A program made the translations under genes and the position numbers. The notes under the pieces were generated by a model. That model was not told the DNA's origin, did not search any database, and was given only the letters and a program-made list of their open reading frames with translations. Shown here piece by piece: positions 7,871 to 9,059 of a DNA stretch of 9,059 nt. The stretch comes from a virus (Monodnaviria > Loebvirae > Hofneiviricota > Faserviricetes > Tubulavirales > Inoviridae). The stretch is from IMG/VR virus record IMGVR_UViG_2563366954_000001; one strand, written 5' to 3'. Position 1 is the first letter of the stretch. Every line of letters begins with the position of its first letter.

Positions 7871-8974
7871 ATGAGAAAAAAGATGCCGGACTTGATTACT
7901 GATACATTGAAAGTAGTTACTTCTTTTTTTGTGGCATTAGTCCTCAATAAGTTTTTATCTATATTTAGGAAAAGACAACTTTACTTATCCTGTTGGAACT
8001 CCTTGAGTAAAACCTCAATATCTGACAATGCAATAGTAATAAATGCATCAGTATTTAATAAAGGTAAGGATAAAGAAAAAAATGTAGAAATAAAAGTCCC
8101 AAACGGTATGTCTTGTACTGTAATTGCAAGTGATCATGATGCAACTACCGAAGGTTCTTTTGTGAAGATAGATAGAATATTAGCAAATAAAAAAATATCC
8201 ATGGTGCTCTTGATTGAAGGAACAAGAGTTCTTGATAAAAGTACCATGCCTTCCATAAGATCAGAAGATACTGACGGGAAAACATACCTTTCAAAAGACT
8301 CAGTGCCACCGAGTGCAGGTTCTTTTATTTTAGGCGGTGCTATTTTTGCTGCATTTTTCAGTTATATGGTCATCAGTATCCAAACAGAAGACAACCCTCT
8401 CGCGGGCCCATTGAAAGCATATAACTACATGATTTATAACAATATGTACAATTCTGGACTTTCGATTAATCCTATAGGTAATGGACTGATAACTGAAAAT
8501 TACAATCTAAGAGCGAATGAATACCCTATTGAAATAATAGATGCCAAGATAGAAAAAAATCAAATAATGTTCAAATTTAGAATAATTAATAAAACATCAG
8601 AAGCACTGAAAGTTTCAGGCGGATGGAGAATATATAAAAACTTTCAATATATTTCCGAACATGTTGATACATTTGATTATAAAGATGAAAAGAAAAGAGA
8701 AGAAGAAGAAATAAGGGTGTATAAGAAATACAATGTGGAATTTGTTAATGATAATGGATATCTTATGGAAAAACCGAAAGAAAGGGTTGAAGTTCCTGCA
8801 AATTCAGTTGGCTATATTATAATAAACAGAAAATACTCTCCAAGCATTACTTATAATGACCTAAACATCGAGTTTAACTTTAGTGGTGGTTCAGGTGAAA
8901 TATACCAAGAAGCAGATATGCTTTTTACAGCTAAGAATTCTAATATAAGCAGTACTATATTAGACAAGAAATAA
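7871..8974 (+). CDS. Hypothetical AT-rich protein with two predicted TM segments (367 aa); function unknown (candidate phage accessory/moron gene)
   Basis: Long uninterrupted ORF in a markedly AT-rich segment. N-terminal hydrophobic segment (VVTSFFVALVLNKFLSIF) and a second TM (GSFILGGAIFAAFFSYMVISI). Lys/Asn/Ile-rich soluble regions. No motif I can assign to a known family. Confidence 0.6.
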   Translation: MRKKMPDLITDTLKVVTSFFVALVLNKFLSIFRKRQLYLSCWNSLSKTSISDNAIVINASVFNKGKDKEKNVEIKVPNGMSCTVIASDHDATTEGSFVKIDRILANKKISMVLLIEGTRVLDKSTMPSIRSEDTDGKTYLSKDSVPPSAGSFILGGAIFAAFFSYMVISIQTEDNPLAGPLKAYNYMIYNNMYNSGLSINPIGNGLITENYNLRANEYPIEIIDAKIEKNQIMFKFRIINKTSEALKVSGGWRIYKNFQYISEHVDTFDYKDEKKREEEEIRVYKKYNVEFVNDNGYLMEKPKERVEVPANSVGYIIINRKYSPSITYNDLNIEFNFSGGSGEIYQEADMLFTAKNSNISSTILDKK

Positions 8975-8980
8975 TTAATT

Positions 8981-9007
8981 GGTTCGCACAATGACGTTAT
9001 GCTAAAG
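8981..9007 (+). other. Degenerate dif-like site (site A): XerC-like arm, 5-nt central region, XerD-like arm
   Basis: GGTTCGCACAA-TGACG-TTATGCTAAAG versus E. coli dif GGTGCGCATAA-TGTATA-TTATGTTAAAT: 9/11 and 9/11 arm identities by hand alignment, with a non-canonical 5-nt spacer. Confidence 0.5.
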
Positions 9008-9043
9008 AGGCCGCTGCGGAGGCCATTTTCGCAGCGGCCTTTT
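9008..9043 (+). terminator. Perfect GC-rich hairpin (11-bp stem, 11-nt loop) followed by TTT; terminator for the cargo gene and/or apex of the folded attachment hairpin
   Basis: AGGCCGCTGCG (9008-9018) pairs exactly with CGCAGCGGCCT (9030-9040); TTT at 9041-9043. Confidence 0.6.
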
Positions 9044-9059
9044 CAACATAACGAGTCGC
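9041..9059 (-). other. Partial dif-like site (site B): XerD-like arm plus extended central region; completed by window positions 1-14 if the ends are joined
   Basis: Reverse complement of 9041-9059 followed by reverse complement of 1-14 gives GGTGCGCATAA-TGTGCGACTCG-TTATGTTGAAA: a perfect XerC arm, an 11-nt central region and a 9/11 XerD arm. It is inverted relative to site A. Confidence 0.45.

What the first reader, a model, noticed from the sequence alone, without database searches (positions are those of the whole stretch)
8981..9059. CTXphi-style composite attachment region: two inverted dif-like sites flanking a perfect hairpin
Site A (8981-9007) and site B (9041-9059 joined to 1-14) are both dif-like but inverted relative to each other, and they directly flank the perfect 11-bp stem-loop (9008-9040). 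In single-stranded DNA the whole region would fold into one long imperfect hairpin. By hand pairing, the XerC arms match at 9/11, the XerD arms at 8/11 plus one G-T, and the central regions (5 nt versus 11 nt) form a bulge. This is the architecture described for the CTXphi attP(+) forked hairpin that XerCD uses to integrate ssDNA at dif. Here it occurs in a phage with Ff-like gene order and an enterobacterial-type XerC arm.
Basis: partly seen in the sequence, partly recalled or inferred. Interest (0 to 1): 0.8.

Follow-up and report, generated by a model that had tools for sequence, protein, structure and literature searches.

The report
CTX-type phage attachment hairpin, already known
The window is a CUS-1/Ypf-type filamentous prophage of E. 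coli, and its ends join into two inverted dif-like sites around a hairpin, which is the site the phage most likely uses to insert its single-stranded DNA at the chromosomal dif site with the host XerC/XerD enzymes; the reading is correct, but reviews have reported it for this phage family since 2011, crediting a 2005 paper.

Summary
Site A (8981-9007, GGTTCGCACAA-TGACG-TTATGCTAAAG), a perfect 11-bp stem-loop (9008-9040) and inverted site B (9041-9059 plus 1-14; GGTGCGCATAA-TGTGCGACTCG-TTATGTTGAAA) are all present. The window ends are contiguous in a 9,565-bp circular episome and at tandem-prophage junctions. Single-stranded DNA folds into one long imperfect hairpin, the most stable 100-nt fold in the genome. 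That fold is stronger on the strand predicted to be packaged.

Prophage junctions match XerC-only exchange. An intact dif is rebuilt on one side, and site A, the hairpin and site B lie together on the other. Swapped XerC arms place the crossover within TAA|TGT, around the XerC cleavage point.

The architecture is kept in 29 closely related variants and in two divergent modules. Site B always starts its spacer with TGT.

The phage matches the published description of CUS-1: 99.6-99.7% identical to Yersinia pestis YpfΦ over 7.3 kb, with different cargo. Reviews already class CUS-1Φ and YpfΦ as CTX-type elements with inverted XerC/XerD sites. The finding is therefore correct but already known, and biochemical proof for this family is still missing.

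The parts
8981..8991 (+). Site A (attP2-like), XerC-like arm GGTTCGCACAA. In the packaged strand its complement forms the bottom strand of the XerC-binding duplex.
   Evidence: 2 mismatches to the dif XerC arm; paired with site B arm columns 1-11 (helix 1, which also holds 2 central pairs, has 93% of cells paired).
8992..8996 (+). Site A spacer TGACG (5 nt). TG and CG pair with the ends of the site B spacer.
   Evidence: fold. pairs 12/84, 13/83, 21/81, 22/80: standard pairs in all 29 variants (13/83 is G-C in 26 and G.U in 3).
8997..9007 (+). Site A XerD-like arm TTATGCTAAAG.
   Evidence: 2 mismatches to the dif XerD arm; pairs with the site B XerD arm, with T.G at arm position 6 (24 of 29) and G.T at position 8 (29 of 29).
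9008..9040 (.). Connecting stem-loop: perfect 11-bp stem (9008-9018 / 9030-9040) and 11-nt loop (9019-9029). It closes the attP(+) hairpin, stacked on the XerD arms. It may also act as a transcription terminator.
   Evidence: hairpin pairs 34-44/57-67 include 3 pairs with compensatory G-C to C-G changes in the Brenneria-type variants; not called a terminator under the tool's criteria.
9041..9051 (-). Site B (attP1-like) XerD-like arm; reverse complement TTATGTTGAAA.
   Evidence: 2 mismatches to the dif XerD arm.
9052..9059 (-). Site B spacer, distal 8 nt (reverse complement GCGACTCG). It has no identity to the dif central region and is mostly unpaired in the fold.
   Evidence: It varies among relatives.
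1..3 (-). First 3 nt of the site B spacer (reverse complement TGT), identical to the first 3 nt of the dif central region TGTATA. This is the homology patch for XerC strand exchange. The predicted XerC cleavage point lies between window positions 4 and 3 on the - strand.
   Evidence: All 8 distinct site B spacers found by an arm-only scan begin with TGT.
4..14 (-). Site B XerC arm; reverse complement GGTGCGCATAA, identical to the E. coli dif XerC arm. In the prophage it becomes part of the rebuilt functional dif.
   Evidence: Arm swapping seen in L004, L010, L165.
8978..8980 (.). ATT, pairing with AAT at window 15-17. This extends the stem by 3 bp beyond the XerC arms.
   Evidence: fold of the 180-nt joined region.
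5580..6632 (-). Gene II replication protein (context). It sets the polarity of the phage: the morphogenesis and replication genes are on the window - strand, so the packaged (+) ssDNA is inferred to be the window - strand.
   Evidence: PF05144 at 1.2e-73 and PF05155 at 3.6e-34. Annotation.

Best explanation
The region is the attP(+) site of a CUS-1/YpfΦ-type filamentous phage (Inoviridae), a CTXφ-type integrative element that exploits host Xer recombination.

Proposed mechanism:
1. In the packaged (+) single strand (the window - strand), site B pairs with the complement of site A. The 33-nt stem-loop closes the structure.
2. The result is a roughly 93-nt hairpin whose stem mimics dif. It has a XerC-binding duplex and a XerD-binding duplex, separated by a partly unpaired central region (11 nt on top, 5 nt on the bottom).
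3. Host XerC and XerD bind it and synapse it with chromosomal dif.
4. XerC cleaves after GGTGCGCATAA and exchanges one strand pair. The shared TGT stabilises the exchange.
5. XerD exchange cannot follow because the rest of the spacer is not homologous.
6. Replication converts the pseudo-Holliday junction into a prophage.

The prophage then carries a rebuilt, functional dif (phage XerC arm, host centre and host XerD arm) at one end. Site A, the hairpin and site B (now with the host XerC arm) lie at the other end as inert duplex DNA. Further copies can insert at the new dif and build tandem arrays. New circles would then arise from these arrays by gene-II rolling-circle replication rather than by excision.

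What is shown here: the sequence anatomy, the fold, the contiguity of the ends, the junction structure, the crossover interval, and the conservation. What is inferred by analogy with CTXφ: ssDNA as the substrate, XerC-only catalysis, resolution by replication, and irreversibility.
For: 1. Anatomy and chance. Two inverted dif-like sites flank a perfect hairpin. Such sites appeared in 5 of 300 shuffles, and never in pairs.

2. Contiguity of the ends. They abut in a circular 9,565-bp episome, in a 3-copy tandem array in the same strain, and at tandem junctions in 7 genomes with this cargo. At least about 25 of the 40 records listed hold such junctions with other cargo.

3. Fold. One long hairpin forms, with z = -6.1. 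It is the most stable 100-nt window of the whole genome on the phage (+) strand: -28.0 kcal/mol against a mean of -8.7 (sd 4.0). The (+) strand fold is more stable than the (-) strand fold in 28 of 29 variants, by 2.0 kcal/mol on average. This is because the arm differences are G.T wobbles on the (+) strand.

4. Junctions. In NZ_CM132638.1 a perfect dif overlaps window 1-14 on the left. Site A, the hairpin and a complete site B are followed by host DNA on the right. K-12 shows the empty site.

5. Crossover mapping. Outer site B copies carry the host or plasmid XerC arm: GGTGCACATAA in Y. pestis, GGTGCGCCTAA in Photorhabdus, AGTGCGCTTAA in a Klebsiella plasmid. The rebuilt site or the internal junctions carry the phage arm. 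The centres differ from position 4 onward. The exchange therefore lies within TAA|TGT, which brackets the XerC cleavage site.

6. Spacers of 11 and 5 nt parallel CTXφ attP1 and attP2 (12 and 7 nt), and both long spacers start with TGT.

7. Conservation. 29 distinct variants are 95.1% paired, against 29-54% for slid controls, and 7 pairs show compensatory changes. Two sequence-divergent modules, L005 from Klebsiella spallanzanii and L006, keep the same architecture with unrelated connecting hairpins.

8. No recombinase domain was found in the 8 ORFs scanned.

9. Literature. CUS-1Φ and YpfΦ are already listed as CTX-type.
Against: No biochemical or genetic test of XerCD action on this hairpin is available here. 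The reviews I read call the YpfΦ mechanism 'proposed'.

Junction sequences alone cannot separate ssDNA-hairpin integration from a double-stranded site B recombining with dif.

The covariation is modest. The 29 variants are closely related (92% mean column identity) and were partly selected by patterns that fix parts of site B.

The assignment of the packaged strand rests on gene polarity, not on virion DNA.

The review of YpfΦ reports that superinfecting phage inserts preferentially between resident copies rather than at the rebuilt dif. The simple CTXφ model does not predict this.
Confidence: 0.88

Rival explanations
1. VGJφ-type mechanism. Double-stranded site B of the replicative form is the real attP and recombines with dif by XerC exchange. 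Site A is a non-functional relic.
For: The crossover maps inside site B, and the prophage is flanked by a 14-nt direct repeat. A dsDNA reaction would produce the same result. A circular double-stranded form exists.
Against: Site B has an 11-bp spacer, whereas dif has 6 bp and VGJφ attP is a 29-bp site. Site A never forms a junction, yet it is retained in every relative that holds the region. It stays complementary to site B, with compensatory changes and conserved G.T wobbles, including in the divergent modules L005 and L006. Strand asymmetry of the fold in 28 of 29 variants is unexplained by a dsDNA site.
Confidence: 0.06
2. The stem-loop is simply a bidirectional intrinsic terminator between convergent transcription units. 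The flanking dif-like arms are scars of past integration with no role as a folded structure.
For: The GC-rich 11-bp stem is followed by TTTT on the + strand, just after the stop of the 367-aa ORF at 8974, and by TCTTT on the - strand. The stem is conserved with compensatory changes.
Against: The terminator scan found no site: the loop is 11 nt and only 4 T follow. The arms are part of the circular phage genome, not only of prophage borders. Two dif-like sites with 4 or fewer mismatches each, 33 nt apart and mutually complementary, are far beyond chance. A terminator role for the inner stem-loop is compatible with the main explanation as a second function, but it does not explain the arms.
Confidence: 0.03
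3. The long (+) strand hairpin is primarily the packaging signal or the complementary-strand origin of the phage. Ff phages carry such hairpins after gene IV. The dif-likeness would be secondary.
For: It is the most stable hairpin of the (+) strand. It lies in the non-coding region downstream of gene IV and two small ORFs, a position comparable to the Ff intergenic region (established knowledge of Ff phages).
Against: An 11/11 match to the host XerC arm, a 9/11 match to the XerD arm, and the TGT patch are unexplained by packaging. Other strong (+) strand hairpins exist at about 871-980 and 381-480 and could serve these roles. A dual role cannot be excluded.
Confidence: 0.03

Closest known systems
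CUS-1Φ (E. coli O18:K1:H7) and YpfΦ/CUS-2 (Yersinia pestis) filamentous prophages
   Same: The window is 99.6-99.7% identical to YpfΦ over window 1-7330. It differs in the two cargo ORFs next to the repressor-like gene. This is how CUS-1 is described relative to YpfΦ (PMC4266046). It integrates at dif, rebuilds an intact dif, forms tandem copies and an extrachromosomal form, and has a pair of XerC/XerD sites in inverted orientation.
   Different: The attP region is 93% identical to YpfΦ: spacer TGTGCGACTCG against TGTACGACTCG, and the loop differs by several bases and is 1 nt shorter. The window also carries a 507-bp in-frame deletion in the zot/gene I homologue, seen in none of about 100 E. 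coli genomes with this phage. I could not read the original CUS-1 record or paper, so identity with the type sequence is inferred from the description.
CTXφ attP(+) of Vibrio cholerae (Val et al. 2005 model; attP1/attP2)
   Same: Two inverted dif-like sites with over-long and odd spacers (12/7 nt in CTXφ, 11/5 nt here). The long spacer begins with TGT, as dif does. There are mismatches and G.T wobbles in the arms, including G against A at XerD-arm position 8 in both phages. Both sites end up together at one prophage end and a new dif forms at the other. Tandem arrays occur. No integrase is encoded.
   Different: About 33 nt separate the sites here, against about 90 nt in CTXφ. The structure is therefore a compact, unbranched hairpin of about 93 nt rather than a forked hairpin of about 150 nt. 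The arms match enterobacterial dif rather than V. cholerae dif1. The phage is only distantly related. For CTXφ the mechanism is shown experimentally; here it is inferred.
VGJφ-type and TLCφ-type Xer-exploiting elements
   Same: They also use host XerCD and integrate at dif.
   Different: VGJφ has a single 29-bp double-stranded attP and integrates reversibly. TLCφ starts with XerD catalysis. The window instead has two inverted sites with 5- and 11-nt spacers.
Lineavirus I22 (phage I2-2), the nearest phage in the INPHARED collection
   Same: Gene II protein is 57.8% identical over 98% of its length, and the gene order is Ff-like.
   Different: There is no nucleotide-level match. To my knowledge I2-2 is not described as an integrating phage, and I did not scan it for an attP site.

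Membership tests
CTXφ-type Xer-exploiting integrative element (IMEX) | Two dif-like XerC/XerD site pairs in inverted orientation in the phage genome | tested here: met
   Site A at 8981-9007 (+) and site B at 9041-9059 plus 1-14 (-), with 4 and 2 arm mismatches to dif. They are contiguous in the circular form. They appeared in 5 of 300 shuffles, and never twice.
CTXφ-type Xer-exploiting integrative element (IMEX) | In the (+) ssDNA the two sites anneal into a hairpin stem that presents XerC and XerD binding duplexes around a partly unpaired central region | tested here: met
   In silico only. MFE is -27.3 kcal/mol with z = -6.1, and the centroid keeps the whole stem. It is the best fold in the genome. 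The (+) strand is favoured in 28 of 29 variants. 95.1% of cells are paired across 29 variants, with 7 covarying pairs.
CTXφ-type Xer-exploiting integrative element (IMEX) | Homology with host dif restricted to the XerC side of the central region | tested here: met
   The site B spacer TGTGCGACTCG shares only TGT with dif TGTATA. All 8 independently found spacers start with TGT and vary afterwards.
CTXφ-type Xer-exploiting integrative element (IMEX) | Prophage flanked by a rebuilt functional dif on one side and by both phage sites (attP2 and attP1 equivalents) on the other, with the crossover at the XerC cleavage point | tested here: met
   L002 and L050 junctions. Host or plasmid XerC arms on outer site B in L004, L010 and L165 place the crossover within TAA|TGT.
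CTXφ-type Xer-exploiting integrative element (IMEX) | Tandem prophage arrays and an extrachromosomal replicative form; no phage integrase | tested here: met
   Strain TUM14759 has three tandem copies plus a 9,565-bp circle. Tandem junctions occur in other genomes. No recombinase domain was found in the 8 ORFs scanned, and none is annotated.
CTXφ-type Xer-exploiting integrative element (IMEX) | Integration requires XerC catalysis only, uses ssDNA as substrate, is completed by replication, and is irreversible | not testable with these tools
   This needs xerC/xerD mutants, catalytic mutants and in vitro recombination on the folded oligonucleotide. Reviews describe the YpfΦ mechanism as 'proposed'.
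VGJφ-type IMEX | A single double-stranded dif-like attP of about 29 bp | tested here: not met
   There are two sites, with spacers of 5 and 11 nt. The VGJφ description comes from PMC4246890.
Rho-independent terminator | GC-rich stem, short loop, and a run of T directly after the stem | tested here: not met
   The scan found no terminator-like site in L001 1-900. The loop is 11 nt and only 4 T follow the stem. A weak or unconventional terminator role is not excluded.
Any Rfam RNA family | Score at or above the family's gathering threshold | tested here: not met
   The best hit scored 22.8 bits against a threshold of 45.

The most novel reading that the evidence does not exclude
The site itself is known. 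The evidence leaves three less-known points open.

1. The strictly conserved imperfections of the stem are functional determinants. These are G.T at XerD-arm position 8 in 29 of 29 variants (also present in CTXφ), T.G at XerD-arm position 6, and the recurrent G.A mismatch at XerC-arm position 4. They would make the site active only in the (+) single strand and restrict catalysis to XerC.

2. The compact unbranched hairpin also serves as a terminator or packaging element.

3. This family targets plasmid Xer sites as well as chromosomal dif. CTX-type composite sites are also common in distantly related inoviruses with other XerC arms.
Probability: 0.3. Interest if true: 0.45.

Novelty: already known. 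Interest (0 to 1): 0.25.

Why it matters
The result confirms, with far more genomes than were available in 2005, that an enterobacterial filamentous phage family carried by extraintestinal pathogenic E. coli and by Yersinia pestis has the sequence hallmarks of single-strand integration at dif. It also maps the crossover to a 6-nt interval around the XerC cleavage site. None of this changes the accepted picture.

The practical value is for annotation. The 14-nt repeat ACATTATGCGCACC, the rebuilt dif, and the block of site A, hairpin and site B define the prophage borders and the order in which elements were inserted. The conserved wobble and mismatch positions also give concrete targets for the XerCD biochemistry that is still missing for this family.

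Tried and rejected
- A strict search for a dif with a 6-nt spacer and up to 3 mismatches found nothing in the window. The sites only appear when the spacer is allowed to vary.
- Megablast of the whole window against the phage collection found nothing. The nearest listed phage is I2-2, and only at protein level.
- The original CUS-1 paper (PMC135385) is not held, so identity with CUS-1 rests on the review's description and the comparison with YpfΦ.
- The terminator scan and the Rfam scan were negative.
- My first extraction of composite sites used too short a search window and missed most variants. It was repeated correctly.
- One L050 variant of site A (TTGTGCTGAAC) was dropped as a likely assembly error, because that chromosome is full of frameshifts.
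- I considered that the window ends might be artificial prophage borders that never abut. The circular record and the tandem junctions reject this.
- I considered a cer/psi-type multimer-resolution site for the episome and rejected it, because neither spacer (5 or 11 nt) fits the 6-8 bp of such sites. That range is from my own knowledge and was not checked against a paper here.

Full report
**1. What is in the sequence**

The window ends with site A at 8981-9007 (+ strand): GGTTCGCACAA TGACG TTATGCTAAAG. A stem-loop follows at 9008-9040, with stem AGGCCGCTGCG / CGCAGCGGCCT (11 perfect pairs) and an 11-nt loop. The last 19 bases plus the first 14 bases of the window, read on the - strand, give site B: GGTGCGCATAA TGTGCGACTCG TTATGTTGAAA.

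E. coli K-12 dif is GGTGCGCATAA TGTATA TTATGTTAAAT. Compared with it:
- Site B has a perfect XerC arm and a 9/11 XerD arm, but an 11-nt spacer.
- Site A has 9/11 in each arm and a 5-nt spacer.

A site this close to dif (4 or fewer arm mismatches, spacer 4-13 nt) occurred in only 5 of 300 dinucleotide-preserving shuffles of the window, and never twice.

**2. Are the window ends really joined?**

Yes. The window is 100% identical, apart from one internal deletion, to a prophage in E. coli ESBLEC_MG32 and to a 9,565-bp circular record of strain TUM14759. In that circle, window 9059 is directly followed by window 1 (L001 338|339).

The TUM14759 chromosome carries three head-to-tail copies between a perfect dif and the hipA-side flank. 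Every internal junction reads ...CGAGTCGC|ACATTATGCGCACCAATGG.... An 860-nt probe spanning the junction matches in one piece in seven genomes. At least about 25 of the 40 records listed match from site A onward but carry different cargo to its left.

**3. What the element is**

The - strand encodes a gene II replication protein (PF05144, 1.2e-73). It also encodes a DNA-binding protein, small coat-like proteins, a 570-aa adsorption-protein candidate, a DUF2523 protein, a Zot/gene I homologue and a GspD-type secretin. The + strand encodes an HTH repressor-like protein and two ORFs with no family match. This is an inovirus.

Against the Y. pestis locus L004, window 1-7330 is 99.6-99.7% identical to YpfΦ. 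Window 7331-8967, holding the two unknown ORFs, has no counterpart there. The attP region is 93% identical. A review describes CUS-1 of E. coli O18:K1:H7 relative to YpfΦ in the same terms. I could not read the original CUS-1 paper.

**4. Folding**

With DNA parameters, the joined 93 nt fold into one long imperfect hairpin on either strand: -27.3 kcal/mol (z = -6.1) on the window - strand and -25.1 kcal/mol (z = -5.7) on the + strand. Only the - strand centroid keeps the XerC-arm helix.

On the - strand:
- The XerC arms form 9 Watson-Crick pairs, one T.G and one G.A.
- The XerD arms form 8 Watson-Crick pairs, two G.T/T.G and one A.C.
- The spacers pair by 2 bp at each end and leave a 7-nt/1-nt internal loop.
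- Three further pairs (ATT/AAT) extend the stem.

This hairpin is the most stable 100-nt window of the whole genome on that strand: -28.0 kcal/mol against a mean of -8.7 (sd 4.0). The replication and morphogenesis genes are on the window - strand. Inoviruses package the strand of mRNA sense (established knowledge). I therefore infer that the - strand is the packaged (+) strand.

**5. Junctions and the crossover point**

In the single-copy lysogen L002, the left border is a perfect dif whose XerC arm and first three central bases are window 14-1. The right border is site A, the hairpin and a complete site B, followed by host DNA. The CTXφ model predicts this product of a XerC-side exchange.

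The exchange point can be narrowed from both sides.
- The central regions differ from position 4 onward. The host's TGTATA stays with the host XerD arm, and the phage's TGTGCG... stays with the phage XerD-like arm.
- Outer site B copies carry XerC arms that differ from the phage arm: GGTGCACATAA in Y. pestis, GGTGCGCCTAA in Photorhabdus, and AGTGCGCTTAA in a Klebsiella plasmid. Internal junctions or the rebuilt site carry the phage arm GGTGCGCATAA.

The crossover therefore lies between arm position 9 and central position 3, within TAA|TGT. This interval brackets the known XerC cleavage position.

**6. Conservation in relatives**

Searches with the gene II protein gave 7 genome loci and 39 viral contigs. 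Every locus that holds this part of the genome has the same arrangement: a long-spacer site, a hairpin, and an inverted short-spacer site.

Eight distinct long spacers were found by a scan that scored only the arms. All begin with TGT and vary afterwards.

Two modules are divergent in sequence but keep the plan.
- L005 (Klebsiella spallanzanii) has spacers of 9 and 6 nt and a different 62-nt connector.
- L006 has spacers of 11 and 6 nt, and its connector folds into two hairpins, forked as in CTXφ.

Both fold well, with z = -6.6 and -8.3.

Adding a pattern scan of viral contigs gave 29 distinct 92-95-nt variants, aligned as A1. On the proposed structure:
- 95.1% of cells form standard pairs, against 29-54% when partners are slid by 1-3 columns.
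- Seven pairs change on both sides.
- No shuffle out of 500 reached the observed values.

These variants are closely related, and some were selected with a pattern that fixes parts of site B. The covariation is therefore supportive rather than decisive.

The imperfections are more telling because they persist. G.T at XerD-arm position 8 occurs in 29 of 29 variants, and CTXφ attP1/attP2 show G against A at the same position. T.G at position 6 occurs in 24 of 29, T.G at XerC-arm position 9 in 21 of 29, and a mismatch at XerC-arm position 4 in 18 of 29. These are wobbles on the (+) strand and would be C.A mismatches on the other strand. Consistent with this, the (+) strand fold is the more stable one in 28 of 29 variants. 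The exception is the Y. pestis outer copy, whose XerC arm is host-derived.

**7. Mechanism**

The best explanation is the CTXφ mechanism in a compact form. The (+) ssDNA hairpin mimics dif, and XerCD synapse it with chromosomal dif. XerC exchanges one strand pair using the TGT patch. XerD cannot complete the reaction because the rest of the spacer is heterologous. Replication then resolves the intermediate.

Afterwards both phage sites are buried in duplex DNA with 5- and 11-bp spacers, so they are inert. The rebuilt dif can accept further copies, which produces the tandem arrays. Circles would then arise by gene-II rolling-circle replication across a tandem junction. The one strain with an assembled episome does carry a three-copy array.

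The anatomy, fold, junctions, crossover interval and conservation are shown here. The nature of the substrate, the catalytic requirements and the irreversibility are inferred by analogy.

**8. Rivals**

- Double-stranded site B acting alone (VGJφ-type). This fits the junctions. It does not fit the 11-bp spacer, the maintained complementarity of site A, or the strand asymmetry.
- Terminator only. This fails to explain the arms, and the scanner does not call the stem-loop a terminator. A secondary terminator role for the inner stem-loop remains possible.
- Packaging signal or complementary-strand origin. This cannot be excluded as a second function, but other strong (+) strand hairpins exist.
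- No Rfam family matches.

**9. Comparison with the literature and novelty**

[quoted passage not shown] 2005 (PMC3089051). A review lists YpfΦ and CUS-1Φ as related members of the CTXφ class (PMC4246890). [quoted passage not shown] A research paper calls CUS-1Φ and YpfΦ enterobacterial elements related to CTXφ (PMC3442271).

A specialist would not be surprised. What is still missing for this family is direct biochemistry. One reported behaviour of YpfΦ also does not fit the simple model: it inserts preferentially between resident copies.

**10. Verdict**

Novelty is "already known", and interest is 0.25.

Noticed in passing
window 2540/2541 (inside the zot/gene I homologue, ORF 2130-2648, - strand): The window lacks 507 bp that are present in the episome (about L001 2879-3385) and in YpfΦ. 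The deletion is in frame and leaves a 172-aa Zot remnant that keeps only the first ~38 residues of the Zot domain. None of the ~100 complete E. coli genomes matching this stretch has the deletion: all ten records listed match in two pieces spanning ~648 bp. This copy is probably assembly-defective, or the deletion is an artefact of the source.
   Followed up: partly
L165 (Klebsiella pneumoniae plasmid NZ_CP132684.1, 248 kb, IncFIB/IncHI1B), locus 2572-21607: Two tandem copies of a CUS-1/Ypf-type phage with different cargo sit in a plasmid Xer site. The rebuilt site is GGTGCGCATAA TGTACG TTATGTTAAAT. The outer site B carries the plasmid XerC arm AGTGCGCTTAA. This phage family can therefore integrate into a plasmid dimer-resolution site as well as chromosomal dif. 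I did not check whether this has been reported.
   Followed up: partly
L002 13581-16300 (E. coli ESBLEC_MG32 chromosome, right of the prophage): A decayed second attP lies next to the ancestral hipA-side flank: site A-like GGTTCGCATAA TGACG TTATGCTAAAG, a degenerate hairpin, and only the XerD arm of site B. An ISNCY transposase fragment and a SIR2-family gene lie between it and the live prophage. They look like the remains, or cargo, of an older element inserted at dif.
   Followed up: partly
About 20 further distinct composite sites have other XerC arms (ACCGCGCATAA, ACTGCGCATAA, ATTGCGCATAA) and connectors of 70-120 nt between the two sites (composites of roughly 105-156 nt). Many contigs encode only distant Zot homologues (22-30% identity). 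CTX-type composite sites seem widespread among inoviruses well beyond Vibrio and Enterobacterales.
   Followed up: partly
window about 8972-8977 (just left of site A) and about 7330: Matches from other E. coli genomes start abruptly at window 8972-8977 and continue through site A, the hairpin, site B and the window start. YpfΦ homology stops at 7330. The cargo module (the two unknown ORFs at 7347-7769 and 7871-8974, with no Pfam match) is therefore exchanged as a cassette bounded by the attP site and the repressor region.
   Followed up: partly
L004 993-1025 against 9735-9767 (Yersinia pestis NCTC5923): The outermost site B has XerC arm GGTGCACATAA, while the inter-copy junction has GGTGCGCATAA. 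A published table lists the Y. pestis CO92 dif with the G form. The functional dif listed for phage-carrying Y. pestis may therefore carry a phage-derived XerC arm. This was not verified on a phage-free Yersinia genome.
   Followed up: no
L006 (contig titled MAG: Aerococcus sp.) and L008 (MAG: Candidatus Nanosynbacter sp.): Both contigs encode gene II proteins 86-96% identical to this enterobacterial phage. L008 also holds a perfect E. coli-type dif and K-12-like flanking sequence. They look like binning contaminants rather than phages of those hosts.
   Followed up: no
window 8940-8963 and window about 871-980 and 381-480 (- strand): There are further hairpins. One is an 8-bp stem (CTAATATA...TATATTAG) inside the 3' end of the 367-aa ORF. 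Two strong (+) strand structures lie near the end of gene IV and near the start of the small ORF at 155-403 (- strand). They are candidates for the packaging signal or complementary-strand origin.
   Followed up: no
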